In this document: positions 2,247-64,000 of the stretch, one piece after another
How the letters are laid out: the number at the start of each line of letters is the position of its first letter
Position numbering within the stretch: the stretch's first letter is position 1
Assembly: GCA_963851265.1 (NCBI GenBank)
Contig: CAWKNZ010000006.1
Location: 32,001-96,000, forward strand
Origin: an uncultured Gemmatimonadales bacterium
GTDB taxonomy: Bacteria; Gemmatimonadota; Gemmatimonadetes; Gemmatimonadales; Gemmatimonadaceae
Length of the DNA stretch: 64,000 nt
Direction of reading: 5' to 3'
Notes under the pieces: model-generated
Seen by the model: only the letters and a program-made list of their open reading frames with translations
Databases searched by the model: none
Told to the model about the DNA's origin: nothing
Position numbers and translations under genes: made by a program

Positions 2247-2300
2247 CGGATGCCTAACGCACGGCCGCGTCCGCGCGCGGGCCCTTGACCGGAGTTCCGG

Positions 2301-2500
2301 ATGCGTCGTGTCGCCGTGTTAGGCCTTGGCGCGATGGGCGTGCGCACGGCACGGCGCCGTGGCGGGGCTCGCGGCCGGCGCCCTCGCGGTGGAGTCGAGC
2401 ACGGTAACGCCGACGTGGGTCCGCGAGCTCGGCGGGCACGTCGCTGCGCGCGGGGCGGTGCTGCCGGACGCGCCCGTCGTGGGCGCGCGCCCGTGCGTCA
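2301..2500 (+). pseudogene. 3-hydroxyisobutyrate dehydrogenase-like (beta-hydroxyacid dehydrogenase) remnant
   Basis: The Rossmann start MRRVAVLGLGAMG is followed, in another frame, by ALAVESSTVTPTWVREL...DAPVVGARP. The middle and C-terminus are missing. Confidence 0.7.
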
Positions 2501-3349
2501 GGACGACGGCGCGACACGCGCGCGGCAGCGGCGGAGGAACTCCGCCTGGAATCCGGGATCGGCGAGCGCCGGCGGCAGCACCTGCACCTTGCCGCCCGAG
2601 ATCGAGATCCCGCTCCGCCCCTGCCACCCCGGCGACAGCGCGGCGTCGACGATTTTCCGCGCGCTCTTGGCGGGCGACGGGAGCGCCCAGGAGAAGATGC
2701 GCATCCACCACGGCGTCCCCGCGCCTTTCGTGAGGCGGGTGCGGGTCGGGCCGGGATCGGCCGTGCGGATCGCGATCGCGTCGGCGCCTAACTCCGGCGC
2801 GAGCGCGGCCGTGAGCACGTTCAGCGCCTGCTTGGACCGCACGTACGGTCCGAAGAGCTTGCTGAACTCGCGCGGTTTCACCAGCTCATCCCAGTCGAGG
2901 CTCGTCGCGCGGTCGGCGATGCCCGCAGACGTGCTGACGATCGTCGCACCATGCGCCCGCGCGAGGGCGGGCCGCAGGTGGTCGATGAGCTGCAGGGGCG
3001 CGAGCGTGTTGACCTCGAAGTGCAGCTCGTTCCCGTTCGCGGACATCTGCAGCGTCTCGGTCAGCACGCCCGCGTTGTTGAACAGGTAGTCGACCGCGGG
3101 ATACCGGGCGACGATCTCCGCGCCGACGCGCCGCAGATCGTCGTGATTCGCGAGGTCGGCCGCGAACACGTCCCGCACGGCCCCGGGCGTCGCGCGATTC
3201 ACCCCCTCCGCGAACGCTTCCGCCTTCTTGCGGTCTCGCTCCAGCAGCACGAGCGCGATCCCGCGCTCCGCGAGCAGCGTGGTGAGCGCGGCGCCGATGC
3301 CGCCGGATGCGCCGGTGACGACGGCGAGGCGTGGACTCCCTGATGGCAT
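2498..3349 (-). CDS. SDR family oxidoreductase
   Basis: VVTGASGGIG, LFNNAG, YVRSK (YxxxK), DPGPTRT. Confidence 0.9.
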   Translation of the reverse strand: MPSGSPRLAVVTGASGGIGAALTTLLAERGIALVLLERDRKKAEAFAEGVNRATPGAVRDVFAADLANHDDLRRVGAEIVARYPAVDYLFNNAGVLTETLQMSANGNELHFEVNTLAPLQLIDHLRPALARAHGATIVSTSAGIADRATSLDWDELVKPREFSKLFGPYVRSKQALNVLTAALAPELGADAIAIRTADPGPTRTRLTKGAGTPWWMRIFSWALPSPAKSARKIVDAALSPGWQGRSGISISGGKVQVLPPALADPGFQAEFLRRCRARVAPSS

Positions 3350-3356
3350 GCCGCGC

Positions 3357-3788
3357 TCACCCGGCCGGCGTGGCGCCGGCGGCGCGGAGCTGCTGCTGCA
3401 CGCCGAAGAAGTCCTCGAGGTGCCAGGTGCGGACGATCCGGCCGTCCTTCACGGTGTGGAACTCCATCGTCATGAGCTCGATGCGGGCGCCGGGCGCGAA
3501 CAGGCCGAGGAACGGGCCGCGCTGCACGCCGCGGAGCGTGTTGCGGCAGGCGACCACGTCGCCGCAGTCGTAGATCTCCTCGACCGTATAGGAGATGTCG
3601 GAGAGCACGCCGTGCAGGTAGGCAATGGCCTGCGATTCGCCCGCGCGGGTGCCGGGCATGCCGAAGAGCGCGGGCTTGAGCTCCCAGCCGTCGGCGAGCA
3701 CGTCGTCGAACCGCGACACGTCGCCGCTCGCGAAGATGGCGTAGAACTGCCGGACGACGTCCTGACGCGACGTGGATGTGTCAGTCAT
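3357..3788 (-). CDS. SnoaL-like ester cyclase / NTF2-fold protein
   Basis: 143 aa with RGVQRGPFLG and FHTVKDGRIVRTWHLED. Confidence 0.85.
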   Translation of the reverse strand: MTDTSTSRQDVVRQFYAIFASGDVSRFDDVLADGWELKPALFGMPGTRAGESQAIAYLHGVLSDISYTVEEIYDCGDVVACRNTLRGVQRGPFLGLFAPGARIELMTMEFHTVKDGRIVRTWHLEDFFGVQQQLRAAGATPAG

Positions 3789-5165: not shown

Positions 5166-6463
5166 GGCTTGACGAGCTGCGGGAAGCCTTCCTCGCGCTT
5201 GAGCATGTTCTGCGCGGGCTTGATGGACCGCTGCTGGAACTCGCCCGCGTACCGGTAGTCGGGGAACATGTACTCCGAGAGGTCGAGGTCCGAGAGTCGG
5301 AAGCCCGCCGACTTGTCGACCGAGACGAGTTGCGCGTGTCCGGTCGCGAGGTCGCGGCGCAGCGCGACGAGGAAGCGCGGACTCTGGTCGGCGACGCGCA
5401 GGATGCTCCCCATCGACGCGGCGACCGACCGCACGCCCTCGGAGGTGCCGAAGGCGACCGGCGTGGCGTAGCCCGGCTTCCGGTGCGCCTCGGCGATCGA
5501 CGCGAGCGGGATCACGTCGGACGGGCGGTTGAGGTTCGCGACGAGCACCATCGACTGCGCGGCACCGCCGGCGGACGCGGGCATGGTGAACGGGACGATG
5601 TTCACCGGCAGGCCCGCGTCGCCGAGTTCGGCGATCGTCTTCGCGGTCACGTGTGCGCCGTCGCGGAGCGCCGCGACCGGGATGGTGACGAGCGGCGTGC
5701 AGACGTACGCCGCGAGCAGCACCGGCTCGCCGTCGATCTCCGTGAAGGCCATCGCGCGGATCGGCGCGCGGGTCTCCATCTGGTTGTGCGACGTGTGATA
5801 CATCTCGACCGACGCCATCGCCCGCCCGCCGGCGCCGAAGGGGTAGGGGAGGATGCGGAGCGTCGACGCGAAGGCCTGGTTGGACAGGCCCGCCACGTAC
5901 AGGCGGCCGTCGTGCCACCGCAGGTCGGTGACGGTGAAGCTGCGGTCGGGGACGGAATCCCAGAACTTCGTGAGGCTGGTCGGGGGCCGGTCGAGCGCGG
6001 CCGACGTCCTCGGCAGGTGGGCGAGATCGAGGCGCCGCACCGAGCCGTTCGCCGCGACGACCACGACGGCGGGCGTGCGCGCGGGCCCGACCGAGGCCGC
6101 AACGTACAGCTCCCCGCCGTGGGGGCGCGCGGCAAGGTCCTCGAGGGTGACGTCCGGCGTCCCGAGCGCCCGCCGGAGCGGCGTCTCGAGGTCGCGGACG
6201 TTGAACGGCACGGCCGTGTCGGCGCGCGACGCGGGGAGCGTGAACGCGTGCACGCGCGCCAGCTTCCAGTCGGCGAGGAACAGCACGTCGTCGGGGCCGA
6301 AGGCGATCCGCGAGACGGAGGCCGGCGCGGGGTCGGGCGCGGGCGCCGCGTGGCGCCTAACGACCGCGGGGGTGGGCCGGTGCGCGCCGTCGCCGGCGCG
6401 GCGCGGCGCGGCGTGGGGCGTGACGGGCAGGGCGAGCGTCGAACCGAGCAGGAATGACAGCAT
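5162..6463 (-). CDS. Secreted hypothetical protein, probable beta-propeller
   Basis: Signal peptide, then IAFGPDDVLFLAD, VTDLRWHDGRLYVAGLSNQAFAS, VEMYHTSHNQMETRAPIR, AAYVCTPLV. An alternative GTG start lies at 6478. Confidence 0.75.
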   Translation of the reverse strand: MLSFLLGSTLALPVTPHAAPRRAGDGAHRPTPAVVRRHAAPAPDPAPASVSRIAFGPDDVLFLADWKLARVHAFTLPASRADTAVPFNVRDLETPLRRALGTPDVTLEDLAARPHGGELYVAASVGPARTPAVVVVAANGSVRRLDLAHLPRTSAALDRPPTSLTKFWDSVPDRSFTVTDLRWHDGRLYVAGLSNQAFASTLRILPYPFGAGGRAMASVEMYHTSHNQMETRAPIRAMAFTEIDGEPVLLAAYVCTPLVTIPVAALRDGAHVTAKTIAELGDAGLPVNIVPFTMPASAGGAAQSMVLVANLNRPSDVIPLASIAEAHRKPGYATPVAFGTSEGVRSVAASMGSILRVADQSPRFLVALRRDLATGHAQLVSVDKSAGFRLSDLDLSEYMFPDYRYAGEFQQRSIKPAQNMLKREEGFPQLVKP

Positions 6464-7591: not shown

Positions 7592-10081
7592 TCAGAAGGT
7601 GCTGCCGAGCGTGACGAAGAGCTGCCGCGGCGCGCCGGTCAGCAGCGTCGCGTAGTCGCCCGCCGTGGTGAACCCGTTCGTTCCCACCGTGCTGACGTAG
7701 CGGCGGTCGAACAGGTTGTTCGCGTTCACCTGCACGTCGAGCGCGCGCAGGCGCCCGTACGGCCCGAAGCGGTAGCGCGCGTTGAGGTCGGCCACCGCGT
7801 ACGCCGGCGCGTAGCCGCCGCCGGCCACCGTGCGCCCGTCGTAGGTGACGAGGTCGTTGGTGTAGGTGAAGAAGCGCTTGTCGACGTAGCGCCCGACCAC
7901 CGCCGCGTAGAGCCGGTCGGCCGAGTACCCGACCGACGTGCTGCCCAGGAAGCGCGGGGCGTCGACCACGTTCTTGCCCCGGGTCGGCACGTTGGACGTC
8001 GGGTCGTTCTGGACGGCGAGGTAGTCGCTCTGGTAGGTCGACGCGTTGTACGACGCGGCGGCGTAGAAGCGGAAGCCCGCGGGCAGCGCGGTGTTGAGCA
8101 GCCCCTCCACGCCCCGGGTGTGCACCGAGCCGACGTTGCCGAAGCCCGTCGCGCAGGTCACCGTCTGCGGGCAGAGCGAGACGCCTAACAGCCGGTTCCG
8201 GTAGTCGACGAGGTACCCGGTGAGCCCGGCCTCGACCGGCCCGCGCCGCGTGCGCACGCCCCCCTCCACCGTCGTCGACTTCTCGGGGTCGACGCGGCTC
8301 AGGTAGGGGAACGTCGCCGGGCTCGCGTTGTACACGCCCCCGGCGGGGCTGTACGGGAACTGGTTGACGTTGACCGCGAAGTTGGCGAACAGCTCCTCGG
8401 CGCCCGTGGCGCGGAACACCGCGCCGACCTGCGGCAGCAGGCCGCCCTTGGTCGCCAGCGAGAACGCGGGGCGGCTGACGTCGGCGAAGACCGGCGCGAC
8501 GACACCGTTGGTCGGGGTGTTCCCCTGGTTCGTGAAGTCGGCGCCGACGTGCAGGTACTTGGCGCCGTAGGTGACCGCGAGCCGGTCGTCGAGGGCGCGC
8601 GTCGTGTTCTGGGCGTAGAGCAGCGTGGTGCCGAGCGCGGCGTGCCGGTCGAAGTCGAGGCGCAGTGGATCGCCGAAGTTCACGTCGGGGCCGGTCGCGT
8701 AGTTCACCAGGCGCCAGCGCGGCCGCCGGATGTCGTCGCGGTTGGACTCGAGCCAGGTGCCGACCTCGAAGCGGTTGGTCGTCGCGCCCACGGCGAAGGG
8801 GTCGGTCGCGAGTCGCGCCGTCGCGCCGAACCGCGTGTCGTGGTACTGCGTCTGCCGGAACATGATCGGGTCGGGCGAGTACGCCGCGCCGTAGCTCGGC
8901 GCGTGCCAGTCGCCGCCGCCGTGGTCGACGTGCACGTACGGCTGTACCGTCAGCTGCAACCCGCCGCCCAGCGCGAACTCCCCCCTGAGGTACGCGAGGT
9001 GGTCCTGGCGCGCCCCCTGCGCCGACCAGTAGTACGAGACGTCGGTGAGCGGGTTGTAGGTCTTCGCGTTGCTCAGCTCGGCCAGCTGCTTCGCCTGCGC
9101 CCAGCTGCCGAGGTAGTCGAAGTTGGGCCCGAGCGAGAACCCGGGGGCCTGCACCTGGCCGTTGAAGACGCCGAGCGACAGGTCCATGTAGTCGCTCTCC
9201 TTGCGGCTCGCGAAGTCGTAGAAGGCCGTGACCCGCTGCCGGCCGATGGTCAGGAGCGCCTTGGCGTTGAGCTGGTCCTGCCACTGCTCGCCCGCGCGGC
9301 CGAAGAGGCCGCGCTGCCCCAGGAGGAACGACGTCTGCCCCGGGAAGCTCGAGTAGCGTTCGCCCCCGGACTTCCACTTGTCGGTGTCGAAGCGCGAGTA
9401 GGACAGGTAGCCGAGGAGCGCGCCCGCCCCCTCGCCGAAGGTGGCGAGGCCGTTGTCGTAGCGCAGCGTCGTGCGCCGCGCCTGGTACTGCCCGCCCATC
9501 TGCTGCACGAAGAACGTGCGCTGCGCGAGCGGATTCTCGGTGGCGTACTGCACGACGCCCCCGAGGTTGTTGGCGCTCGCCGTGCCGAGCGCGCCCGCGC
9601 CCTGCGCGACCGTGGTCGAGCTCAGGTTGCTCGGGTCGGCCGCGCGCCCCACGCCGAGGCCGTTCCAGTTGCCGTACGACATGTCGCCGAGCGGCACGCC
9701 GTCGAGGGTCTGGCCGATCTGCTGCGTCTGGAAGCCGCGGATCGTGACCCGGTTGGACCATTCGTACATCCCGAAGCCGTCGGCGTTCTGGACGTTCACG
9801 CCGGGGAGTTGCTCGATGACCTTGAGCGCGCTCGTCCCGGGCGGCGCGGCGTGGATGCGGGTCGAGTCGACGGCCGCCGCGCTGCGTGCGAGGCCGCGCC
9901 CCGAGACGGCCGTGACCGTGACGCCGGTCAGGCGCGTGACGCTGTCGCGCCGCGTCCCGGCAGGGCGCGGGGCGCCGGCGGTGTCGGTGCGGGCTGGCTG
10001 CTGAGCGCGGGCGTCGGCGGGCGCGAGGGCGAGCCGGGCGCCCGCGAGGGCCGCCGCAGCGACGAGCGAGGAGGTGCGCAT
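7592..10081 (-). CDS. TonB-dependent outer-membrane receptor
   Basis: Signal peptide, TonB-box-like VTVTA, plug LPGVNV...IRGF, barrel end NANNLFDRRY...PRQLFVTLGSTF with a terminal Phe. Confidence 0.93.
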   Translation of the reverse strand: MRTSSLVAAAALAGARLALAPADARAQQPARTDTAGAPRPAGTRRDSVTRLTGVTVTAVSGRGLARSAAAVDSTRIHAAPPGTSALKVIEQLPGVNVQNADGFGMYEWSNRVTIRGFQTQQIGQTLDGVPLGDMSYGNWNGLGVGRAADPSNLSSTTVAQGAGALGTASANNLGGVVQYATENPLAQRTFFVQQMGGQYQARRTTLRYDNGLATFGEGAGALLGYLSYSRFDTDKWKSGGERYSSFPGQTSFLLGQRGLFGRAGEQWQDQLNAKALLTIGRQRVTAFYDFASRKESDYMDLSLGVFNGQVQAPGFSLGPNFDYLGSWAQAKQLAELSNAKTYNPLTDVSYYWSAQGARQDHLAYLRGEFALGGGLQLTVQPYVHVDHGGGDWHAPSYGAAYSPDPIMFRQTQYHDTRFGATARLATDPFAVGATTNRFEVGTWLESNRDDIRRPRWRLVNYATGPDVNFGDPLRLDFDRHAALGTTLLYAQNTTRALDDRLAVTYGAKYLHVGADFTNQGNTPTNGVVAPVFADVSRPAFSLATKGGLLPQVGAVFRATGAEELFANFAVNVNQFPYSPAGGVYNASPATFPYLSRVDPEKSTTVEGGVRTRRGPVEAGLTGYLVDYRNRLLGVSLCPQTVTCATGFGNVGSVHTRGVEGLLNTALPAGFRFYAAASYNASTYQSDYLAVQNDPTSNVPTRGKNVVDAPRFLGSTSVGYSADRLYAAVVGRYVDKRFFTYTNDLVTYDGRTVAGGGYAPAYAVADLNARYRFGPYGRLRALDVQVNANNLFDRRYVSTVGTNGFTTAGDYATLLTGAPRQLFVTLGSTF

Positions 10082-10229: not shown

Positions 10230-10835
10230 CACGGCCGGCTGCGTTGATCTGCAGGACGGCGCCGGCGTGCTGCGTGTAGTCGCCGGCGATCGTGAACGTG
10301 TAGCCCTGCATCGCGCCGGCGACACCCGGCGAGAGGGTGCCGCCGTCCAGCACGTGGACGCTGTTCCGGGCGCCCGTCGTCCCCACGCTGGCACCCGGGC
10401 CGCGCAGCGTGCTGCCGCTGCCGACGGTGACGTTGGTCAGCATCCGGTCGCCCGCGGCCAGCGTGAGCGTGCCGGACGTGTTCCCGAAGTACCCGGCGGC
10501 GGCGTACAGATCGACGCGGCTCCAGTCGCTGGGCGACATCCCGGCGAACGCCGTGAGGGCCGGCGTCTCGGTGTTCTGGATGATCTGGTTGATGGTGCCC
10601 GTCGAGAGCTTGCCGCCGATGCCGCCGTTAGGCGCGATCACCTGCGCCGCGCTCGTGCCGCCGCCCTACACGGTCGCGAGGAGGATGGAGGCGTCGGGCC
10701 CGCCCGCCGGGGCGGCGTCGGCCGCCAGCACGCTGGTCGGTATGCCGTAGCTCTGACGCGCCTGGCAGATCTGGCCGTTGCTGGTGAGCGGGCCGCTCGC
10801 GGTCGGGGTGGCGTTGCCGTAGGTCGCGAGCGACG
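10230..10835 (-). pseudogene. Fragment of a large beta-helical surface/autotransporter-passenger-like protein
   Basis: G/T/N/S-rich frame (GGTLSPG, FTIAGDYTQ...VLQIN) with an in-frame TAG at 10666-10668. No signal peptide or barrel domain. Confidence 0.55.
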
Positions 10836-11058: not shown

Positions 11059-11410
11059 CGAGCGCCTAACGCGGTCCCCGACCGCGCCCGTTATGCCGTC
11101 GGTCGGACCGGCGGCCCGGCCCCGGCCGCGACCCGGCCCACGCACCCCGCGGCCACTACTTCGCGCGAGGCACTTCCGCGCCGGGGCGCACCGCTCCGCG
11201 CCACCCGCACGTTGCCCGCGCGTACCCAAGGAGCCATGCGCATCATCGCGCTCGCATTGTGCCCCGGCAGCACCGCGCACGCCATGCTGGCGGCCGGCGC
11301 GCGGCCGCCCTCGCCCTGGGTCCAGGCGCGCTTGCGGCCGCCGCGCGCGCCGCGCATGTTGGCGCTCCCCGTCGTCCCGCGTCTCCTACGTCGCCCACCG
11401 CCCAGACTCC

Positions 11411-11815: not shown

Positions 11816-11898
11816 CCGGCCGAGGCGCCGCCGCCTAACGGCCACCCGCGGCGTCCACGCCGGCCCGCGACTCGGCCGCGCCGTGGCGGCCCCGCGCG

Positions 11899-50923: not shown

Positions 50924-50989
50924 CGCGCACGGCGGGTCGGCGGGAATCGCGCGGCGGCGCGGGTCGCGGGAACCGCGGGGATCGGGACG

Positions 50990-53775: not shown

Positions 53776-53886
53776 CAACGTGTCTCCTGAGTCCGAGGTC
53801 GCCGAGCCGGTGACGTGCACGCACGGCGCGCACGTCCGGCCATCGGCGCGCTTCGGTGCGTTGGTGGCACGAGGCGGCCGCGCGGG

Positions 53887-54846: not shown

Positions 54847-54859
54847 CCCGTACGCGTCC

Positions 54860-55714: not shown

Positions 55715-55772
55715 GCGCGCGCGTAATGCTGTTCGGACGCTCCGTGTCCGCCACCCCCGTCGACCCTCCCGC

Positions 55773-57767: not shown

Positions 57768-57786
57768 CGGCGCGGTAGCGGCGCGG
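57759..57786 (+). repeat. 11-bp tandem repeat GCGCGGTAGCG x2.5 spanning a stop codon
   Basis: Units at 57759 and 57770, partial unit at 57781. Confidence 0.8.
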
Positions 57787-57914
57787 CTGCCGTGGTGCGG
57801 TCGGGGTCCTGCCCGTCGGCGACGATTCACATGGCACGAGAGTCGCTTTTCTCCGACACGTCGCCGGTCGGGCGCACGCCCGACCGGACTGGACCTCTAC
57901 CGGAGACGAACACC

Positions 57915-58151
57915 ATGCGCGACTTCACGAACACGGCACGGGCGGCGGTCCTCACCGCGATGATCGGTGCAATCGGCGTGGCGCCACTCGCCGCGGGCGC
58001 GCAGATGGCGCAGCCGGCGCCGAAGCACCACAGCAAGATCAAGGGCGCGCTCGTCGGCGGCGCGGCTGGTGCGGTCGTGGGCCACCCGAAGCTCGGTGCG
58101 GCGGCTGGCGTCATGCACCAGCATCACAAGAACAAGAAGGCGGGTCTCTGA
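57915..58151 (+). CDS. Small secreted glycine-zipper protein
   Basis: GGAG RBS, signal peptide, KGALVGGAAGAVVG, basic His/Lys tail. Confidence 0.7.
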   Translation: MRDFTNTARAAVLTAMIGAIGVAPLAAGAQMAQPAPKHHSKIKGALVGGAAGAVVGHPKLGAAAGVMHQHHKNKKAGL

Positions 58152-58179
58152 CCTGAGATCTGCGCGGGCGGCGGGCGGG

Positions 58180-60645
58180 TCACGCGGTCGACGTTCCACG
58201 ACCGCTGCCGCCCGTGCCGCGCGTGAGCCGGCGCAGCACGAAGCCGAGTACAACCGCCGCGACCACGAGCCCGGCCTGCGCCGTGGTCACGCCCGTGAGC
58301 ACCGCCGCGACCAGCAGCAGCCCGCCGCCCCAGGCCACGGGCGCGGCGGGGATGTGGACCGTCGCCGGCGGCGCACCGGCGCGCCGGCGTAGGGCGGGCA
58401 GGGCGGCGCACGTCACCCCGTAAACCAGCAACCGCGCTGCGGTACTCACCGTGAGCGCGCCGCGAAACGTGCTCACGGCGGCGAGCACGAAGAACGACAG
58501 GGCGACGGCGCCGAGCGCGACCGAGGGCGTGCGAAAGCGGGGGTGGATGCGCCCCAGGACCGCGGGCAGCTCGCCGGCGTCGGCCATCGCGAGCGTGAGG
58601 CGCGACGCGGCGAGCAGCGCGGTGTGGAGCGTCCCCGCGATGGCGATCACGGCGCCGGCGACGACCACCGGCACCGCGGCGGCCCCGGCGATCTGCCGCG
58701 CCGCCGCGGCCAGCGGGCGCTCGGTGGTCGCCAGCTCCGGCACGGCGCCCACGCACACCGCCTGAACCGCGACGTAGAGCAGTGCGACCGCTACCAGCCC
58801 GGCGCCCAGCGCGACCGGGAGGTCGCGCCGCGGATCGCGGCTCTCCCCCGCGGCGATCACGGCCGTCTCGAAACCGGAGAACGCGAAGCAGAGCAGGAGC
58901 ACCGCCGTGCCGAACGCGGGCGCCGGCGGCGGAGCGCGTAACGCGAGGCGCGACGGCGCGACCGCGAACGCCCCCGCGACGACGAGCGCGACGATGGGCA
59001 GGAGCTTGGCCGCGGTCACGGCCGTACTCACCGCCGCGGCCACCCGGATGCCGCGCGCGTGGACGGCCGTGAGCGCGGCGAGGGCGACGACGATCACGAG
59101 CAGGCGTCCGCGCCCCGCGCCCGCGCCGGGCACGACCTGCGCGAGGTATTGCGCGAGCAGTCCGCAGAGCGCCGCGCCGCCCGCCAGACGCGCGACGAGG
59201 AGGAGCCACCCCGTGACGAAGCCGACGCGCACCCCGAACGCCTCGCGGGCATACAGATAAGGGCCACCGGTCGCGTCGAAGCGGCTTGCGACCTCGGCGA
59301 AGCACAGCACCACGAGCCCGATCACGATCGCGCTCGCGACCACCGCCGGCACGCTGTAGGCGCCCACGAGCCCGGCCACCGTCGACGGCAGCCCGTACAC
59401 CGCAGCGCCGACGACGCTGTTGATGGTCAGAGCGAGCAGTCCGCCGCGCCCGATCCCGCGCGCGAGGCCGCCGCCGGCGGCGCTCGTCAGGTGACCGGCG
59501 CCGCGCGCCCGCTCCCGTCGCGGCCCGCTCCGTCGTGGCGCCGCTCCGTCGTCGGCCGCCGCGCCGGGGTGCGCCGCCGGCGGCGCGACGCCACCGCGCA
59601 GCCTCGGCATCACGAGCTCGCCGAAGCGGCGGCACTCCTCGAGGTGCGGGTACCCCGACAGGATGAACGTCGAGATGCCTAACGCCTGGTAGGCGCGCAG
59701 CTTCGCCTCGACCTGCCCCGGGTCGCCGACGATCGCGACGCCCACGCCGGTGCGCGCCAGGCCCACGCCCGCCCAGAGGTTCTCCTCGACGACGAGCGAC
59801 GGCCCCCCGCTCAGCGCGGCCTGCCGCCGCTGCCCCTCGGAATCGACGCCGGACGCGGACGCGACGAAGCGGCGGCGGACCTCGGGGTCGATCCGGCTGA
59901 TGAGCCGTTCGGCCGCCTCCCACGCCTCGGACTCGGACTCGCGCACGACGACGTGGCAGCGCAGTCCGTAGCGCACGCGGCGTCCCACCCGCGCCTCCGC
60001 CGCTCGCATCGTCGACAGCCGCCGGTCGAGCATCGGGAGCGTGTCGCCCCACAGCAGGTACACGTCGGCGTGTCGCGCGGCCGTTTCCTGCGCCGCGTCG
60101 CTGTGCCCGCCGAGGTAGATCGGGATCGCCGGGCGCGGCTGCGGCGCGACGACCGCGCCGTGCAGCCGGTACCGGTCGGACTCGTGGTCCACCACCGGCT
60201 CGCTCCACAGGCGGCGCAGCAGCGCGCAGAACTCGTCGGTGCGCGCGTAGCGGGCCGCGTGGTCCTCGAAGTCGCCGTACATCGCGAGCTCGTCGGCGTT
60301 GGAACCGGTGACGACGTTCACGCGCACCCGGCCCGGGAAGAGGGTGGCAGCGGTCGCCGCCATCTTCGCGAACACGGCGGGGTGGAACATCCCGGGCCGC
60401 ACCGCGACGAGCAGCCCGGCGCCCTGCGTGCGCGCGAGCGTCGCCACCGACGCCGTCCACGCGTCGTGCTCCGCGTGGAAGTTGGTCGCCGTCAGCAGGC
60501 TCTCGAACCCCATCTCGGCCGCCGTCTCGACGAGCGCGGCCAGGTACGGGAGCGTCGGGCGGCGGGTCGGCGCGGTGCCGAGGAACTCGGCGTCGGGCGC
60601 GAGCTGGCAGAACCAGAGCAGCTCGAGCCCGTCGGGCGTGGGCAT
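58180..60645 (-). CDS. LLM-class flavin monooxygenase (SsuD-like) fused in frame to an APC amino-acid permease
   Basis: About aa 1-355 has GFESLL, LVAVRPG, VNVVTG, IYLGGHS, LWGD, FILSGYPHLEE. From about aa 386 it has TINSVVGAAVYGLP, GGPYLYAREAFG, FSGFE, AGESRDPRRDLP. No stop lies between the halves. Confidence 0.8.
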   Translation of the reverse strand: MPTPDGLELLWFCQLAPDAEFLGTAPTRRPTLPYLAALVETAAEMGFESLLTATNFHAEHDAWTASVATLARTQGAGLLVAVRPGMFHPAVFAKMAATAATLFPGRVRVNVVTGSNADELAMYGDFEDHAARYARTDEFCALLRRLWSEPVVDHESDRYRLHGAVVAPQPRPAIPIYLGGHSDAAQETAARHADVYLLWGDTLPMLDRRLSTMRAAEARVGRRVRYGLRCHVVVRESESEAWEAAERLISRIDPEVRRRFVASASGVDSEGQRRQAALSGGPSLVVEENLWAGVGLARTGVGVAIVGDPGQVEAKLRAYQALGISTFILSGYPHLEECRRFGELVMPRLRGGVAPPAAHPGAAADDGAAPRRSGPRRERARGAGHLTSAAGGGLARGIGRGGLLALTINSVVGAAVYGLPSTVAGLVGAYSVPAVVASAIVIGLVVLCFAEVASRFDATGGPYLYAREAFGVRVGFVTGWLLLVARLAGGAALCGLLAQYLAQVVPGAGAGRGRLLVIVVALAALTAVHARGIRVAAAVSTAVTAAKLLPIVALVVAGAFAVAPSRLALRAPPPAPAFGTAVLLLCFAFSGFETAVIAAGESRDPRRDLPVALGAGLVAVALLYVAVQAVCVGAVPELATTERPLAAAARQIAGAAAVPVVVAGAVIAIAGTLHTALLAASRLTLAMADAGELPAVLGRIHPRFRTPSVALGAVALSFFVLAAVSTFRGALTVSTAARLLVYGVTCAALPALRRRAGAPPATVHIPAAPVAWGGGLLLVAAVLTGVTTAQAGLVVAAVVLGFVLRRLTRGTGGSGRGTSTA

Positions 60646-60663
60646 CGATGACCGTGAATTCGG

Positions 60664-62547
60664 TTACGCGGGCGGCAGCGCCCGGCGTCCCGCCAGTGCC
60701 GTCAGCTGCAGCGCGACGGCCGGCGCGGACGGCTGCTCGCGCCCCGTCAGCTGCTGACGGCGCTCCGTCCGCCCGAGCACGCGCTGGTAGAAGTCGCCGA
60801 GCGGCTCGCCGGGTGTGCCGTCGGCGCCCCAGGCTTCGAGGAGCGGGCGCACCGTGTCGAGAATCGCGTCGAGCTTGACGTCGCTCGCGTACAGGTCGGC
60901 CATGCGGTCGCCCCGCATCGAGCCGCCGACGTACACGTTGTACAGCCCGAGCGAGCGCCCGACGAACGCCAGGTCGGCCGTGTACGGCCGCGCGCAGCCG
61001 TTGGGGCACCCGGTGGAGCGCACGGTGAGCGGCGCGTCGCCGAGCCCGAGGCGCGCGAGCTCGGGCTGCAGCCGGTCGAGGATCCCGGGCAGCGCGCGCT
61101 CCGACTCGGCCACCGCGAGGCCGCACGTGGGCAGGGCGGGGCACGCCATCGAGAAGCGCCGCACGGCCGGCAGCGACTCCGCGGGCGCGACGCCGTGGGC
61201 CTCGAGGATCGCCTCGACGCGCGCGACCGCCGCGTCGGGCAGGTCCGTGAGCAGCAGGTTCTGCTGCGGGGTGAGCACCACGCCCGGGCGCAACTCCTCG
61301 ACGATCGTGCGGAGCGCCGTGCGCAGCCGCGCCGTCTCGCGATCCGAGATGCGCCCGCTCTGCACGAACACCCCGTAATGCGAGCGGCCGCCGCCCGCCG
61401 GGCGGCGGCCGAGGTGGTCGTCGGGCACGCCGGCCGCGACGGGGGCCGTGGGGTGGAGCGGGAACGCCGCACGCCGCGCGAACTCCTCGCGGAAGCGCTC
61501 GATTCCCCAGGCGGCCAGCAGGTACTTGAGGCGCGAGTGGCGGCGGTCGGCGCGGTTGCCGTGGTCGCGGAAGATGGCGGCGACGATCTGCGCGGCCGCC
61601 ACCGCGTCCCCGACCGCGACCATGCCTAACGGCTGGCCGAGCTGGGCGATGGTGTCGGGCTTGTTGGCCGTCATCCCGAGGCCGCCCCCGACGAGCACGT
61701 TGAACCCGGCGACCGTGCCGTCGTCGGCCACGACGCCGATCAACCCGACGTCCTGCGCGTAGACGTCGGTGGTGTTGTCGGTCGAGAGGGCGACGCCGAC
61801 CTTGAACTTGCGCGGCAGGTACTGCGTCCCGTAGAACGGCTCCTCCGGCGAGGGCGACGAGGCCGCCCCGGCCACGGGCGCGGCGCCGGCCGGCAGCGGC
61901 GTGCTCGCGCTCGTCTCGCGTACCACGAGCGTGTCCGGGTCGACCTGCAGGCCGTCGATCCACAGCTCGAAGTAGGCGCGACTCGCGGGACGCAGCGCGG
62001 TGGCGATCTCGCGCGCGACGCGCCGCGCGGTCGCGTGCGCGGCGTCCTCGTAGGGCGCGGCCGGCGCCATCACGTTGCGCGACACGTCGCCGCACGCGGA
62101 GATCGTCGTCGCCACGTTCTCGTTGATGGCCGCGATCGCGGGACGCAGGTCGCCCTTGAGCACGCCGTGAAACTGGAAGCCCTGGCGCGTCGTGATGCGC
62201 AGCGTGCCGTTCGCGCGCTCCTCGGCCAACCGGTCGAAGTCGAGGTACTGCTCGGCGGTCATCGCGCCGCCCGGGAGCACCACGCGCACCATGTAGCTCC
62301 AGGCGCGGTCCTGTCCGGCGGCGGCGCGGGCGCGACGCACATCGCGGTCGTCCTGCTGGTACGAGCCGTGGAACTTGAGCAGCACCACGTCGTCGTCGCC
62401 GAAGCGCGGTGCGTCCGACGCGAGCGTTTCGGCGAGCGTGCCGCGGAGGGCGCGGCTCAACCGCTTCGCGCGTTCGACCTTCGATTCGCCGGCCGGCGCG
62501 CCGTCCTCGCCCGCCGACCCCGCCGCGTCGTCCTGTGGATCCGCCAT
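60664..62547 (-). CDS. cysI: Siroheme-[4Fe-4S] sulfite reductase hemoprotein (CysI/Sir family)
   Basis: LKFHGSYQQDDRD, RITTRQ, ACGDVSRN, YLPRKFK, MACPALPTC, TGCPNGCARPY. Confidence 0.9.
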   Translation of the reverse strand: MADPQDDAAGSAGEDGAPAGESKVERAKRLSRALRGTLAETLASDAPRFGDDDVVLLKFHGSYQQDDRDVRRARAAAGQDRAWSYMVRVVLPGGAMTAEQYLDFDRLAEERANGTLRITTRQGFQFHGVLKGDLRPAIAAINENVATTISACGDVSRNVMAPAAPYEDAAHATARRVAREIATALRPASRAYFELWIDGLQVDPDTLVVRETSASTPLPAGAAPVAGAASSPSPEEPFYGTQYLPRKFKVGVALSTDNTTDVYAQDVGLIGVVADDGTVAGFNVLVGGGLGMTANKPDTIAQLGQPLGMVAVGDAVAAAQIVAAIFRDHGNRADRRHSRLKYLLAAWGIERFREEFARRAAFPLHPTAPVAAGVPDDHLGRRPAGGGRSHYGVFVQSGRISDRETARLRTALRTIVEELRPGVVLTPQQNLLLTDLPDAAVARVEAILEAHGVAPAESLPAVRRFSMACPALPTCGLAVAESERALPGILDRLQPELARLGLGDAPLTVRSTGCPNGCARPYTADLAFVGRSLGLYNVYVGGSMRGDRMADLYASDVKLDAILDTVRPLLEAWGADGTPGEPLGDFYQRVLGRTERRQQLTGREQPSAPAVALQLTALAGRRALPPA

Positions 62548-62635
62548 CTCGCCGTTCCTCCCCGCCACGTGCTGCCGTGGACGCCGGTGCGTGCGGACCC
62601 GGGTGGCCCGCCGTTCTCCCCTCACGACATCTCAG

Positions 62636-62669
62636 CCCTAACATAATCAGCACTGTAGGGGTTTGATTG
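62636..62669. promoter_or_regulatory. AT-rich divergent promoter with AATCA-N14-TGATT inverted repeat
   Basis: ccctaacataatcagcactgtaggggtttgattg between cysI and cysG, with a -10-like cataat. Confidence 0.45.
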
Positions 62670-62741
62670 CGGCTCGGTCGCGGCGGTGTGCACGCCGCCG
62701 CGAGCCATCGACAGGGCCGGTCGGCGTGGGGAGGTGCAGGC

Positions 62742-64000
62742 GTGGCAGCGTACTATCCGGTGTCGCTCGATCTCGCGGGGCGGCGGTGCGTGGTCGTCGG
62801 CGGTGGGGCGATCGCGGAAGGGAAGGTGGACGGGCTCCTCGCGGCGTGCGCGCGCGTGGCCGTCGTCGCCCCGGCGCTCTCGCCGAGCCTCGCGGCGCAT
62901 CACGAGGCCGGGCGGCTGGCGTGGGTCGCGCGCGAGTACCGCGCGGGCGATCTCGCGGGGGCGTGGCTCACCATCGCGGCGACCGACGACGGGGCCGTGA
63001 ACGACGCGGTGTGGCGCGACGCCGAGGCCGCGGGGGTGCTCGCGCAGGTGGTCGACGACCCGCCGCGGTGCCACTTCATCCTGCCGTCGATCGTCGCACG
63101 CGGCGACCTCACGGTCGCGGTGTCGACGTCGGGCAGCGCGCCGGCGCTCGCCGTGCGTCTGCGCGAGCGCATCGGCGCGATGCTCGGCGACGAGCACGCG
63201 CGCTTCCTCGCGATGGCGCGGCGCGTGCGGGCGCCGCTCGCGCGACGCACGCCCGACTTCGCGACGCGCAAGCGCGCCTGGTATGGCCTGGTCGACTCGG
63301 ACGTGCTCGAGCGGCTGCGCGCGGGCGACGAGGCCGGCGCGCGCGCGCGCTTCGTCGAGTGGCTCGGCGTCGCGCCGCCGGCGGAGGAGGAGCCGCCGGC
63401 CGCGGGCGCCGGCGGCTACGTGTGTCCGGCCGGCCGGCCGTGCGTGCCCGGCTGCACGGGGGCCGGCGCGCGCCGGGCGGCCGCGGTGCGTTCGTTAGGC
63501 ATGGAGGACGGACCGTCGGAGAATGGACCGGCGGGCGCCGCCGCGGCGGAGCGGAGCCCCGGCACCGTGTGGCTCGTCGGCGCCGGGCCGGGCGACCCGG
63601 AGCTCATCACCCTGGCCGGCGTGCGCGCGCTCCGGGGCGCGGACGTGGTGCTGTTCGACCGCCTCGCGCACCCCGACCTGCTCGAGGAGGCGCCGCCGCA
63701 CGCGCTGCGCATCGACGTCGGCAAGAGCGCGGGTGACGCGGCCGCGGGGCGGGGCATGACGCAGCGCGAGATCGACGCGCTCATCGTCGCCCACGCGTGC
63801 GCGGGGCGCGCGGTGGTGCGGCTCAAGGGTGGCGACCCGTTCGTCTTCGGCCGCGGGTCGGAGGAGGCGGCCGCGTGCGCGCGGCACGGCATCCCGTGTC
63901 GCGTCGTCCCCGGCGTGTCGAGCGCGATCGCGGCGCCGGCGTCGGCGGGGATCCCGGTCACCGCGCGCGGCACCGCCGCGTCGTTCGCCGTGGTCACCGC
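62742..64000 (+). CDS. cysG: Siroheme synthase (dehydrogenase/ferrochelatase plus uroporphyrinogen-III methyltransferase), 3' partial
   Basis: Absent from the ORF track, probably because it runs off the window edge. GGAGG-GTG start, [30 protein letters not shown], then in the same frame [34 protein letters not shown]. Confidence 0.92.

What the first reader, a model, noticed from the sequence alone, without database searches (positions are those of the whole stretch)
2252..63500. Over-represented non-palindromic octamer GCCTAACG/CGTTAGGC written through genes with rare codons
Seen: 18 exact copies (2252, 6355, 10626, 11064, 11833, 16431, 20304, 22919, 27964, 36638, 38745, 39951, 43558, 43572, 44505, 59677, 61624, 63493) plus 7-mer cores at 2318, 2786 and 8183. 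A rough base-composition estimate at about 75% GC gives about 2 expected. In 11 coding cases it reads TTA-GGC (Leu-Gly with the rarest Leu codon). Twice it reads GTT-AGG, once it supplies the TAG stop, and the intergenic copies sit just after stop codons. Both orientations occur on both sides of the origin. Inference: a DNA-level signal maintained genome-wide, analogous to uptake sequences, HIP1 or nucleoid-protein/methyltransferase sites, but matching none I know.
Basis: partly seen in the sequence, partly recalled or inferred. Interest (0 to 1): 0.8.

Follow-up and report, generated by a model that had tools for sequence, protein, structure and literature searches.

The report
Genome-wide DNA word CGTTAGGC, Gemmatimonadaceae
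A soil bacterium of the Gemmatimonadaceae and about a third of its family write one short DNA word, (C)GTTAGGC, into genes, stop codons and spacers roughly twenty times more often than chance and against their own codon habits, which points to an unknown protein that reads the DNA itself, most likely a "self tag" for DNA exchange, and the word is missing around every replication and partition module.

Summary
In the whole genome there are 1,396 octamers and 1,762 GTTAGGC heptamers, the strongest 8-mer outlier, 24 times a third-order Markov expectation. A synonymous-codon shuffle leaves a 19- to 30-fold excess, and 76% of TTA codons are followed by GGC.

The signal is in the DNA, not the RNA or protein:
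- Both low-constraint frames are filled alike.
- Copies outside genes point either way.
- Sites arise by two-step and even amino-acid-changing substitutions.
- 74% of sites are kept in a congener, against 50% for a preferred-codon control word.

The word is enriched in 63 of 201 family genomes, patchily and independently per lineage, and almost nowhere else in the phylum. It equals the integron core GTTRRRY, but integrase presence does not track it.

New here: the word is excluded from 15-45 kb zones around all four ParB partition and replication modules, including this window's. This repeats in part in other genera.

Best reading, at about 40%, is a DUS/USS-like tag spread by transfer-biased molecular drive. 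The reader protein is unknown. The scan had already reported this word several times on other pieces of this genome.

The parts
2252..2259 (+). GCCTAACG, 5 nt after the stop of ORF 1116-2246; left arm of an inverted pair with 2318-2324
   Evidence: pair listed
2318..2324 (+). GTTAGGC heptamer (TGTTAGGC), right arm of the inverted pair 2252-2324 (73 nt). The terminal stem forms, but the whole does not fold better than shuffles.
   Evidence: (z 0.10)
2786..2792 (-). GTTAGGC heptamer read as GAG-TTA-GGC in ORF 2498-3349 (-)
6355..6362 (-). CGTTAGGC read as GTT-AGG-C in ORF 5162-6478 (-)
8183..8189 (-). GTTAGGC heptamer read as CTG-TTA-GGC in the TonB-dependent receptor ORF 7592-10183 (-)
10626..10633 (+). 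CGTTAGGC on +; ORF 10180-10641 (-) reads it antisense as CCT-AAC
11064..11071 (-). CGTTAGGC on -; ORF 10994-11815 (+) reads it antisense as CTA-ACG
11833..11840 (-). CGTTAGGC on -, between convergent ORFs, 17 nt after the stop of 10994-11815
16431..16438 (+). CGTTAGGC read as GCG-TTA-GGC in ORF 15434-16933 (+)
20304..20311 (+). CGTTAGGC whose TAG is the stop codon of the S41 peptidase ORF 18459-20309 (+)
22919..22926 (+). CGTTAGGC read as ACG-TTA-GGC in ORF 22231-24450 (+)
27964..27971 (+). CGTTAGGC read as GCG-TTA-GGC in ORF 27195-28355 (+)
36638..36645 (-). CGTTAGGC on -, 12 nt after the stop of ORF 36657-38288 (-)
38745..38752 (-). CGTTAGGC read as GCG-TTA-GGC in the LysR ORF 38409-39314 (-)
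39951..39958 (+). CGTTAGGC read as CCG-TTA-GGC in ORF 39356-40462 (+)
43558..43579 (+). Two direct CGTTAGGC copies 14 bp apart, 9 and 23 nt after the stop of ORF 42197-43549 (+)
44505..44512 (+). CGTTAGGC read as GTT-AGG-C in ORF 43660-46161 (+)
44513..59676 (.). 15.2-kb stretch without the word (gap 11 of 1,774 in the genome). It holds the secondary replicon's ParB (48667-49863), ParA (49856-50917) and RepA-like (50990-53155) genes.
   Evidence: The homologous block in G004 lies in a 17.8-kb gap; the one in G001 does not.
59677..59684 (-). CGTTAGGC read as GCG-TTA-GGC in ORF 58180-60645 (-)
61624..61631 (-). CGTTAGGC read as CCG-TTA-GGC in the sulfite/nitrite reductase ORF 60664-62625 (-)
63493..63500 (+). 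CGTTAGGC read as TCG-TTA-GGC in the sirohaem synthase ORF 62667-63998 (+)

Best explanation
C-GTTAGGC-(G/A) is a DNA-level 'self tag'. An unidentified protein reads this asymmetric 7-9 bp word on DNA that passes between cells, most likely at DNA uptake for natural transformation, or at some other transfer step with a sequence preference.

Fragments that carry the word are transferred and recombined more often. Any mutation that creates or improves a copy is therefore over-transmitted (molecular drive), and copies pile up wherever the coding sequence tolerates them.

Shown here: the word is a DNA-level, orientation-neutral, actively maintained signal that accumulated independently in several lineages. 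The word-free zones around replication and partition modules would then be places where allelic replacement is not tolerated, or whose DNA is younger.
For: (1) Size of the excess. There are 1,396 octamers and 1,762 heptamers in 4.60 Mb. This is the top 8-mer by z (175, against 47 for the next unrelated word) and 24x a third-order Markov expectation. The excess over a synonymous-codon shuffle is 19-30x. Of the hyper-abundant short words I compared it with, only uptake sequences and HIP1 reach this order, as I recall.

(2) It is a DNA signal.
- Flank preferences are the same in genes and in unclassified or intergenic copies: C at -1 in 77% and 73%, G/A at +7 with T at 6%.
- Of the 111 copies lying after a gene end, 56 point with the upstream gene and 55 against it.
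- The two frames that need only a wobble base from a neighbouring codon are filled alike: 701 of 8,795 Leu-Gly as TTA-GGC (8.0%) and, antisense, 162 of 1,433 Pro-Asn as CCT-AAC (11.3%).
- The word also supplies 52 of 485 TAG stops and 89 of 281 TAA stops.

(3) Sites are written by several steps and at a cost.
- At 28 TTA-GGC sites, the motif-poor relative G006 has Leu-Gly 15 times, written CTG/CTC-GGN in 13, CTT-GGC once and TTG-GGC once, and another dipeptide 13 times.
- In rpoB, Ala to Gly and Asp to Asn changes create copies.

(4) Sites are maintained. 45 of 61 sense sites (74%) are identical in congener G004. The preferred-codon control GCTCGGC keeps 115 of 230 (50%) and GCTGGGC 6 of 42.

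(5) Spacing is more even than random. Gaps of 200 bp or less: 46 observed against 130 expected.

(6) ORFs of G004 with no hit in G000 carry fewer copies, 0.39 against 0.59 per kb (46 observed, 70 expected, P = 0.0014). This is as reported for USS and DUS (abstract of PMC2817400).

(7) Density among enriched genomes runs continuously from 2x to about 70x a reversed-word control, and sites differ between lineages. A drive whose strength or age varies would give this.

(8) G000 encodes ComEC, two small ComEA-like HHH_3 proteins, DprA and two secretins.
Against: - No uptake experiment exists, and no reader was found.
- ComEC is in 31 of 31 relatives, rich and poor alike, so competence genes do not explain the patchiness.
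- DUS-type inverted pairs in terminators are rare. Only 19 of 1,750 neighbouring pairs are inverted within 200 bp.
- Per-gene motif density does not correlate with lower divergence between G000 and G004 (rho 0.03).
- Known uptake sequences are family-wide with dialects. Here one identical word is scattered: 63 of 201 genomes, 24 of 68 genera, and at least 3 changes on the rpoB tree.
- Uptake sequences are not known, as far as I recall, to be excluded from origin or partition regions. That exclusion fits a chromosome-bound protein at least as well.
- Natural transformation is not documented for this phylum in the library searched.
Confidence: 0.4

Rival explanations
1. The word is the binding site of an abundant chromosome-bound protein, nucleoid-associated or chromosome-organising. 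Selection keeps one site every few kb but clears sites from the zones where ParB spreads from parS and where replication starts, because a tightly bound protein would block ParB sliding or origin function.
For: - All four ParB_N loci of G000 lie in word-free gaps ranked 1, 3, 11 and 15 of 1,774. P for 4 of 4 is 1.3e-5. It is 2.2e-4 for the three loci tested after the first was seen. dnaA lies in gap 12.
- The 45-kb gap holds mnmG, parA, parB, mnmE and the parS-like palindromes. 0 of 5,000 random placements reach 45 kb.
- The syntenic zone is depleted in G004 (7 copies in about 42 kb) and in G001 (4 in about 44 kb).
- The chromid module of G004 sits in a 17.8-kb gap.
- In five other enriched genomes, 8 of 10 ParB_N loci lie in gaps more than 2.5x the mean spacing.
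- Spacing is even.
- Short direct arrays occur with a period of about one helical turn.
Against: - G012, at 1.2 copies per kb, has copies within 1 kb of its parS and parAB.
- G132, G081 and the G001 chromid module show no exclusion.
- A functional binding site would be expected at similar density in all lineages that have the protein, but density varies about 30-fold.
- No candidate protein was found.
- The exponential null used is liberal, since G000 itself has 15 gaps of 14.5 kb or more against 6.5 expected.
Confidence: 0.2
2. The word is the target of a DNA methyltransferase or of a Type IIG/BREX-like enzyme that marks one strand of an asymmetric site. The marked sites are selected as an epigenetic self-label, for instance for recognising DNA during transformation or repair.
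For: - An asymmetric 7-mer with an A next to its 3' end (GCCTAAC) is the kind of site MmeI-type enzymes use. This is recalled, not tested.
- G000 has a 1,141-aa Eco57I/MmeI_Mtase protein at C7:582086-585511. Its best PADLOC match is a Type IIG REase-MTase, E 1e-39.
- HIP1 in cyanobacteria is a precedent, as I recall, for a hyper-abundant word linked to methyltransferases.
Against: - That gene is found in 193 of 201 family genomes, rich and poor alike, so its presence does not explain enrichment.
- No N6_N4_Mtase was found, and the two other N6_Mtase loci are broken over several frames.
- Restriction sites are normally avoided, not enriched.
- No methylome is at hand.
Confidence: 0.1
3. A biased repair or mutation process writes the word. 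This would be a very-short-patch-like mismatch correction, or site-specific deamination, that converts near-cognate sequences into it.
For: One-off neighbours are also enriched: TGTTAGGC 26x, AGTTAGGC 6x, CGTTGGGC 2.2x. CGCTAGGC is depleted at 0.14x.
Against: - Orthologous precursors are mostly CTC/CTG-GGC, two substitutions away. TTG-GGC is the precursor once in 28 sites.
- The obvious one-step precursor CGTTGGGC is not depleted.
- Amino-acid changes are made to fit the word.
- Known VSP effects are about 2-fold, as I recall, not 20-fold.
Confidence: 0.08
4. The copies are integron-related: landing pads or secondary (attG-like) sites read by the integron integrase, since the word is the R-box core of attC and attI.
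For: - GTTAGGC fits GTTRRRY, and GCCTAAC is the R'' of a classical attC (PMC12901181, passages read).
- In motif-poor relatives the octamer occurs in same-strand runs, mostly 0.4-1.3 kb apart, as expected of cassette arrays.
- G000 has attC-like hairpins ending in the word on C10, 2 of 4 with z of -4.5 and -5.6, and an intI gene on C6.
- The attC copies share the genome-wide flanks C-GTTAGGC-G.
Against: - IntI (TIGR02249, E <= 1e-60) is found in 44 of 63 enriched and 81 of 138 other genomes, so there is no association (my cross-tabulation).
- The richest relative, G012, has only a frameshifted remnant.
- Only 11 of 1,750 neighbouring pairs have the attC arrangement within 200 bp.
- Copies replace existing codons without indels, so they are not insertion scars.
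- Insertions into genes would be harmful.
Confidence: 0.07
5. The word is a Chi-like recombination hotspot or another replication-polar signal such as KOPS.
For: The density, one per 2.6-3.3 kb, and the length, 7-8 nt, resemble Chi of E. coli as I recall it.
Against: - Orientation follows the gene, not the region. In the two strongly strand-biased stretches of contig C2, minority-strand genes still carry the word in sense, 22 against 8.
- Totals are 688 against 708.
- Copies outside genes split 56 to 55.
- RecC was not found in this 94%-complete genome.
- GC skew is too noisy to place replichores, so polarity is not strictly excluded.
Confidence: 0.04
6. The signal acts on RNA or translation: TTA-dependent regulation as with bldA, or ribosome pausing at UUA-GGC.
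For: 60% of copies read TTA-GGC in sense. There is a single tRNA-Leu(UAA) gene.
Against: - 306 copies are antisense.
- About 140-150 copies are stop codons.
- More than 100 copies lie outside genes, in either orientation.
- Flank preferences are kept outside genes.
- Antisense Pro-Asn is filled as often as sense Leu-Gly.
Confidence: 0.02

Closest known systems
DNA uptake sequences: USS of Pasteurellaceae and DUS of Neisseriaceae
   Same: - A short asymmetric word, hundreds to thousands of copies, both orientations in equal numbers.
- Written into genes in the frames that coding allows, with changes to the encoded peptides.
- Scarcer in genes without homologues in relatives (abstract of PMC2817400; abstract of bioRxiv 10.1101/2025.10.24.684340; here).
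   Different: - A different phylum and word, with no AT-rich flanks and no extended motif beyond 9 positions.
- Few inverted pairs, whereas about half of DUES lie in terminators (abstract).
- The dominant frame uses the rarest Leu codon, whereas USS frames favour preferred codons (abstract).
- One identical word scattered over a third of the genera, not a family-wide set of dialects.
- Excluded around partition modules.
- Uptake bias is untested.
Integron core sites (R' GTTRRRY of attC and attI, R'' RYYYAAC)
   Same: The letters are identical. The order's own cassette arrays and G000's attC-like hairpins end in C-GTTAGGC.
   Different: More than 99% of copies are solitary, inside ordinary genes and without hairpin partners. 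Integrase presence does not track enrichment.
HIP1 (GCGATCGC) of cyanobacteria
   Same: A hyper-abundant octamer kept in coding DNA, patchy among relatives, with an unknown reader. This is recalled; no paper was read here.
   Different: HIP1 is a palindrome linked to methyltransferases. This word is asymmetric, and no matching methyltransferase pattern was found.
Chi (RecBCD/AddAB) and KOPS (FtsK)
   Same: An asymmetric 7-8-mer, over-represented, about one per 3 kb.
   Different: No strand polarity beyond what gene orientation gives. RecC was not found. The excess is far larger.
Binding sites that mark chromosome territories (Noc NBS and SlmA SBS absent near the terminus; matS only there)
   Same: A dispersed site that is missing from one functional zone of each replicon, here the ParB/parS and replication modules. 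The comparison with Noc, SlmA and matS is recalled.
   Different: Those sites are palindromes, number tens rather than thousands, and are excluded from the terminus rather than the origin. The exclusion here is not universal.

Membership tests
DNA uptake sequences (DUS/USS) | DNA carrying the word is taken up or transforms preferentially | not testable with these tools
   No experiment exists. No paper on uptake sequences or transformation in Gemmatimonadota turned up in the library.
DNA uptake sequences (DUS/USS) | Genome-wide excess far above composition-aware and codon-aware expectation | tested here: met
   24x a third-order Markov expectation; 19-30x a synonymous-codon shuffle
DNA uptake sequences (DUS/USS) | Both orientations equal, with no polarity relative to replication or transcription beyond coding constraint | tested here: met
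   688 against 708. 56 against 55 outside genes. Leu-Gly 8.0% against antisense Pro-Asn 11.3%. Replichores could not be mapped.
DNA uptake sequences (DUS/USS) | Fewer copies in genes that lack homologues in relatives | tested here: met
   G004 ORFs: 0.39 against 0.59 per kb, P = 0.0014. The effect is modest and the ORF calls are crude.
DNA uptake sequences (DUS/USS) | Frequent inverted pairs acting as terminators (a DUS trait) | tested here: not met
   19 inverted pairs within 200 bp among 1,750 neighbouring pairs
DNA uptake sequences (DUS/USS) | Competence machinery and a sequence-specific receptor (ComP in Neisseria) | tested here: inconclusive
   ComEC is in 31 of 31 relatives. G000 has ComEA-like proteins, DprA and secretins. 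These are present in rich and poor genomes alike, and no receptor was identified.
Integron recombination sites (attC/attI/attG) | Core matches GTTRRRY/RYYYAAC | tested here: met
   GTTAGGC and GCCTAAC (for the consensus)
Integron recombination sites (attC/attI/attG) | R''...R' pair that folds into an imperfect hairpin | tested here: not met
   Only 11 pairs in the attC arrangement within 200 bp. The window pair 2252-2324 has z 0.10. True attC-like hairpins exist, but only on C10.
Integron recombination sites (attC/attI/attG) | Goes with an integron integrase | tested here: not met
   IntI in 44 of 63 enriched against 81 of 138 other genomes
Chi / KOPS | Strand polarity with respect to replication | tested here: not met
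   Orientation follows the gene strand in minority-strand genes, 22 against 8. The replichores were inferred only from gene-strand bias.
Chi / KOPS | RecBCD present | tested here: not met
   RecC (PF04257) was not found in G000, which is 94% complete. AddAB was not searched.
HIP1-type palindromes | Palindromic word | tested here: not met
   The word is not its own reverse complement.

The most novel reading that the evidence does not exclude
The word is read by one undescribed protein in two settings. On incoming DNA it acts as a tag, and because it is spelled like the universal integron cassette core, it would also favour the capture of gene cassettes from any donor. On the resident replicons its sites are kept out of every ParB/parS and replication-initiator zone. 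The word would then divide each replicon into an exchangeable body and a protected maintenance core. Either half alone, an uptake tag tuned to integron cassettes or a dispersed site incompatible with ParB spreading, would be new.
Probability: 0.15. Interest if true: 0.85.

Novelty: new variant of a known kind. Interest (0 to 1): 0.72.

Why it matters
Sequence-tagged DNA exchange is known from only two families of host-associated Proteobacteria. A third, independent case in an abundant but little-studied soil phylum, with a different word and a patchy spread, would show that such tags evolve repeatedly. It would also give a handle on gene flow in soil.

One example is G114, with 66 copies, beside congeners with 3,200-4,100. 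The trait also shows how fast such a word is written.

The identity with the integron core, and the exclusion from all partition and replication modules, are two concrete and testable links to chromosome biology that uptake sequences do not have.

In practice, the word is a marker for binning and for spotting foreign DNA in these genomes. Its TTA codons matter for expressing these genes in other hosts.

Tried and rejected
- Single-step hypermutation from TTG-GGC. Precursors are mostly CTC/CTG, and CGTTGGGC is not depleted.
- Six-base insertion scars left by cassettes. Copies align with existing codons, without indels.
- Integrase as the driver. There is no association.
- ComEC as the discriminator. 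It is present in 31 of 31 relatives.
- Type IIG-like methylase as the discriminator. It is present in 193 of 201 genomes.
- Recent arrival as the cause of the window's word-free zone. The ParB/ParA/RepA block is conserved in G001, G003 and G004.
- Large gaps as mobile islands. The largest gap holds mnmG, parAB and mnmE, and the second holds ordinary metabolic genes.
- Canonical parS. The consensus I recalled has no match within 2 mismatches in G000. The genus uses a variant palindrome.
- GC skew for mapping replichores. It is too noisy.
- Motif density against divergence. There is no relation.
- The window's inverted pair 2252-2324 as an attC. Its fold is no better than shuffles.
- My first genome-wide ORF caller covered only 63% of the genome. 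I used it for codon statistics only, and classified sites locally.
- Literature. The exact-word search gave 2 papers, one on integrons and one unrelated. 'Gemmatimonad' with 'uptake sequence' gave 0. 'GTTRRRY' with 'Gemmatimonad' gave 0. The search on transformation terms listed nothing on this phylum beyond one passing mention.

Full report
**Observation**

Dinucleotide-preserving shuffles of the window give 0.69 on average and never more than 3. The window is 72-77% G+C. It is G000:C6:32001-96000 of a 4.60-Mb, 12-contig assembly.

Across the genome there are 688 + 708 = 1,396 octamers, at 0.27-0.41 per kb on every contig. Expectations are:
- 145 from base composition;
- 50-83 from Markov orders 1-3;
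- 664 at order 4, because the pentamers themselves are inflated.

It is the top 8-mer of the genome by z (175). The next words in the ranking are its own shifted versions, and the first unrelated word has z 47. The core is the heptamer GTTAGGC, with 1,762 copies. Flanks are C (77%) or T (13%) before it, and G (53%) or A (22%), rarely T (6%), after it. TTAGG accounts for 1,925 of the 6,001 TTA/TAA trinucleotides counted on both strands.

**Organism**

The best RpoB relatives in named records, at 82-83% identity, are MAGs titled Gemmatimonas sp., Gemmatimonadaceae bacterium and Gemmatimonadetes bacterium. This agrees with the name given in earlier notes of this scan.

**Codon-aware tests**

In 2,218 confident ORFs (981,823 codons), TTA is 1.0% of Leu codons. 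701 of the 922 TTA codons are followed by GGC, and TTA-GGC is the third commonest way to write Leu-Gly.

I shuffled synonymous codons among all positions of each amino acid. This keeps every protein and even the inflated TTA pool. The shuffle gives 49.2 +/- 6.6 heptamers against 923 observed, and 24.6 +/- 5.3 octamers against 729 (20 shuffles). A tRNA-Leu(UAA) gene is present.

**A signal in DNA, not in RNA or protein**

A local frame classification of all 1,762 heptamers gives:

| Class | Copies |
|---|---|
| Sense TTA-GGC | 1,060 |
| Antisense CCT-AAC | 230 |
| GT-TAG-GC, where TAG ends the frame | 93 |
| Antisense CTA-ACG | 76 |
| Sense GTT-AGG | 55 |
| Unclassified | 248 |

The sense bias comes from coding constraint. 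In two frames the word spans two whole codons plus one wobble base, and these two are filled to a similar degree. They are 8.0% of 8,795 Leu-Gly dipeptides in sense and 11.3% of 1,433 Pro-Asn dipeptides in antisense. The frames that constrain neighbouring amino acids are filled at 0.3-0.75%.

Of the 248 unclassified copies:
- 57 are GCC-TAA-C with TAA as a stop, and 2 are TAG stops;
- 78 have no gene end within 400 nt;
- the remaining 111 lie after a gene end, 56 in the orientation of that gene and 55 against it;
- 68 of those 111 are within 40 nt of the stop.

By gene set, 52 of 485 TAG stops and 89 of 281 TAA stops are supplied by the word. The 248 unclassified copies show the same flanks as genic ones: C at -1 in 73%, and G 56%, A 21%, T 6% at +7.

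**Strand and replication**

GC skew is too noisy to place replichores. Contig C2 has two long stretches with 86-100% and 7-36% of genes on +. In both, the word follows the gene: minority-strand genes carry it in sense 22 times and antisense 8 times, against 119 and 20 for majority-strand genes. I see no polarity beyond what gene orientation gives. RecC was not found.

**Spacing**

Neighbouring copies are further apart than random placement predicts. Gaps of 200 bp or less number 46 against 130 expected, and gaps of 500 bp or less number 193 against 307. Of the 46 close pairs, 27 are direct, 11 are GCCTAAC...GTTAGGC and 8 are the converse. Several direct pairs are 12-14 bp apart, including 43558/43572 in the window.

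**How sites arise and persist**

In an rpoB codon alignment of 27 relatives, the sites of enriched genomes align without indels to CTC/CTG-GGC in the others. Some copies required amino-acid changes: Ala to Gly at column 1476, Asp to Asn at column 1245, and a rewritten tripeptide at column 1372.

I then compared larger samples: 400 kb of congener G004 and 400 kb of the motif-poor G006.
- **G004.** There are 186 ortholog pairs with 72,583 aligned codons and 84.5% amino-acid identity. 45 of 61 sense sites of G000 are the identical heptamer in G004. The controls keep 115 of 230 (GCTCGGC) and 6 of 42 (GCTGGGC). Antisense sites are kept in 2 of 9.
- **G006.** There are 115 pairs, and 0 of 36 sites are shared. 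At the 28 TTA-GGC sites, G006 has Leu-Gly 15 times and another dipeptide 13 times. Those 15 are written CTG/CTC-GGN in 13, CTT-GGC once and TTG-GGC once.

So the word is written by several substitutions, sometimes at the protein's expense. It is then held against the genome's own codon and G+C pressure.

One-off neighbours are mildly to strongly enriched. The obvious one-step precursor CGTTGGGC is not depleted. Per-gene motif density shows no relation to amino-acid or synonymous divergence (rho 0.03). G004 ORFs with no hit in G000 carry 0.39 copies per kb, against 0.59 for ORFs with an ortholog (46 observed, 70 expected, Poisson P = 0.0014). My ORF calls are crude, so this is a modest result.

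**Taxonomic spread**

- **Relatives.** Among 31 relatives, all 5 of the genus are enriched, several other genera are, and most are not.
- **Family.** In 201 genomes of the family, 63 have at least twice as many copies as the reversed control word, by my reading of the table. These fall in 24 of 68 genera, and ratios run from 2 to about 70.
- **Phylum.** In a sample of 251 genomes, only 2 of the 197 outside the family reach that threshold, both in one genus of the sister family f2. G030 of family f3 reaches 2.3 times.
- **Tree.** On an rpoB tree of 27 genomes, a 'rich' label needs 5 changes, at least 3 of them forced by well-supported branches. For that tree I set the label at 150 or more copies, which includes one borderline genome, G016. 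Relatives are not independent.
- **Within a genus.** Sites are mostly lineage-specific. G012 has 10 copies in rpoB, the genus of G000 has 1-2, and only one position is shared. In genus g53, three enriched members have 9-10 copies in rpoB. Their sister G114 has 66 octamers in 5.2 Mb and CTC at all 5 alignable sites, and none of the five is shared with G012 or G000.

The same word has therefore been accumulated independently, and fairly quickly, in several lineages.

**The integron link**

The word fits the core-site consensus GTTRRRY, and its complement fits RYYYAAC. GCCTAAC is the R'' of a classical attC (PMC12901181, passages read).

Evidence for a link:
- In motif-poor relatives the octamer occurs in same-strand runs, mostly 0.4-1.3 kb apart, as cassette arrays would give.
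- G000 itself has attC-like pairs on C10. 2 of 4 fold far better than shuffles (z -4.5 and -5.6) and the other two do not (z -1.05 and -1.77).
- G000 has an intI gene on C6, matched in two pieces 2 kb apart.

Evidence against the integrase as driver:
- TIGR02249 at E <= 1e-60 is found in 125 of 201 genomes. By my cross-tabulation that is 44 of 63 enriched and 81 of 138 others.
- G012, the richest of the 31 relatives, has only frameshifted pieces.

Many of these assemblies are incomplete MAGs, so single absences prove little. The integrase is neither necessary nor sufficient. The identity of the letters remains unexplained.

**Search for a reader**

- ComEC is in 31 of 31 relatives.
- G000 also has two small ComEA-like HHH_3 proteins, DprA and two secretins.
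- No N6_N4 methylase was found, and two N6_Mtase loci are split over several frames.
- A 1,141-aa Eco57I/MmeI-type protein, with a best PADLOC match to Type IIG enzymes, is intact. It has relatives at about 50% identity in 193 of 201 family genomes.

None of these separates enriched from non-enriched genomes.

**Word-free zones around partition and replication modules (new to this scan)**

The largest stretch without the word is 45,086 bp, at C1:182876-227962. It is not an island. It holds mnmG, parA, parB and mnmE and two exact copies plus one near copy of a 16-bp parS-like palindrome. Congeners share this palindrome at the same places, whereas G012 has the canonical parS. No random placement of 1,762 sites reaches 45 kb: 0 of 5,000, with a mean maximum of 20.9 kb.

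After seeing this I looked up the other ParB_N loci. All four lie in gaps ranked 1, 3, 11 and 15 of 1,774, and dnaA lies in gap 12. 6.05% of the genome lies in gaps of that size or larger. The chance is therefore 1.3e-5 for four of four, or 2.2e-4 for the three tested after the first.

The three secondary loci are real maintenance modules:
- ParB, ParA and a RepA-like initiator in the window;
- ParA next to a weak ParB_N match, below Pfam's cut-off, on C8;
- ParB_N next to an RPA-type initiator on C9.

The window's word-free stretch, 44,513-59,676, is one of these zones. Its module is conserved in G001, G003 and G004, so it is not a recent arrival.

Replication of the pattern:
- The chromosomal parAB zone is syntenic in G004 and G001 and is depleted in both. 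G004 has 7 copies in about 42 kb, against roughly 23-29 expected. G001 has 4 in about 44 kb, against roughly 26 expected.
- That zone is also more diverged, at 73-83% nucleotide identity, than most of its flanking blocks, at 76-89%.
- G004's copy of the chromid module lies in a 17.8-kb gap, the only gap over 8 kb in 50 kb. G001's copy does not.
- In five other enriched genomes from four genera, the gap holding each of 10 ParB_N loci exceeds 2.5 times the mean spacing in 8 cases. It is nominally significant (P < 0.05) under an exponential null in 5 cases.

Against generality:
- G012 has copies within 1 kb of parS.
- G132 and G081 show nothing.
- The exponential null is liberal, because G000 has 15 gaps of 14.5 kb or more where 6.5 are expected.

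Two readings fit. A protein bound at the word may be incompatible with ParB spreading or origin function. Or these co-adapted cis/trans modules may tolerate allelic replacement poorly, so a transfer-based drive cannot act there.

**Verdict**

The best-supported mechanism is a DUS/USS-like tag spread by transfer-biased molecular drive, at about 0.4. The rivals I rate as follows:

| Rival | Confidence |
|---|---|
| Dispersed binding site of a chromosome-bound protein | 0.2 |
| Methylation-linked self-mark | 0.1 |
| Biased repair | 0.08 |
| Integron-related landing sites | 0.07 |
| Chi-like signal | 0.04 |
| RNA-level signal | 0.02 |

I file it as working like an uptake sequence, not as a proven member. 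The defining feature, preferential uptake, is untestable here, and the DUS terminator trait is not met.

I found no report of this word, or of uptake sequences, in Gemmatimonadota in the library. Supplements were closed and were not needed for any claim.

The scan has reported the same word before on at least six other pieces of this genome and in another genome.
- the codon-aware and orientation tests;
- the ortholog retention and precursor counts;
- the family and phylum tallies;
- the negative associations for IntI, ComEC and the Type IIG-like gene;
- the partition-zone exclusion.

**Unpublished genomes**

The tallies include genomes flagged unpublished: G011, G047, G093, G254, G281 and G350. 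None is enriched. G011 is also one row of the rpoB alignment and tree. No conclusion depends on them. Removing them changes 63 of 201 to 63 of 198.

Noticed in passing
window 44513-59676; G000 C1:182876-227962, C8:248137-269544, C9:116596-131158, C1:2107-17073: All four ParB_N loci and dnaA lie in unusually long stretches without the word. These are gaps 1, 3, 11, 15 and 12 of 1,774. The pattern repeats in part in G004, G001, G052, G106 and G189, but not in G012, G132 or G081.
   Followed up: yes
G000 C1:192709-192724 and C1:195715-195730 (near copy at C1:186276): The genus uses a variant 16-bp parS-like palindrome beside mnmG and parA. It sits at the same places in G004 and G001. G012 has the canonical parS instead.
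   Followed up: partly
window 48667-53155; G000 C8:258164-260817; C9:123063-127339: G000 has three extra partition or replication modules (ParB/ParA/RepA-like; ParA plus a weak ParB_N; ParB_N plus an RPA-type initiator) besides the chromosomal parAB. The genome is therefore probably multipartite. The window's module is conserved in three congeners, on contigs of about 0.65 Mb in G004 and G001.
   Followed up: partly
window 2252-2324: A 73-nt inverted pair GCCTAAC...GTTAGGC lies right after the stop of an ORF with no Pfam match (1116-2246). It is laid out like an attC, but it folds no better than shuffles (z 0.10).
   Followed up: partly
G000 C10:188935-203785; C6:1592-1708; C6:3005-6044: There are attC-like hairpins ending in the word, 2 of 4 on C10 with z of -4.5 and -5.6. 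An integron integrase gene is matched in two pieces about 2 kb apart, 26 kb upstream of the window.
   Followed up: partly
G000 C7:582086-585511 (L123:2086-5511, - strand): A solitary 1,141-aa Eco57I/MmeI-type (Type IIG-like) gene has relatives at about 50% identity in 193 of 201 family genomes. That is unusually conserved for a restriction-modification-type gene.
   Followed up: partly
G000 C7:771474-772495 and C9:923-1858: Two N6_Mtase (Type I-like) loci match the family in several different frames, so they look broken. No N6_N4 methylase was found in the genome.
   Followed up: no
G052:C1:3375021-3375074 (L146:19021-19074): Five direct CGTTAGGC copies 11-13 bp apart lie just after a TGA stop and about 560 bp from a ParB_N gene. 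At least 20.9 kb without the word follows.
   Followed up: partly
G021:C95:188-23656, G021:C43, G021:C80, G019:C3, G029:C1: In motif-poor relatives the octamer sits in long same-strand runs, mostly 0.4-1.3 kb apart. These look like large integron cassette arrays.
   Followed up: no
G114 against G061, G151, G182 and G208 (genus g53): One member has 66 octamers, while four congeners have 3,200-4,100. In rpoB it has CTC at all five alignable sites.
   Followed up: partly
window 58180-60645: One open frame joins a luciferase-like monooxygenase domain to an amino-acid permease domain. It may be a real fusion or two genes read through by my ORF call.
   Followed up: no
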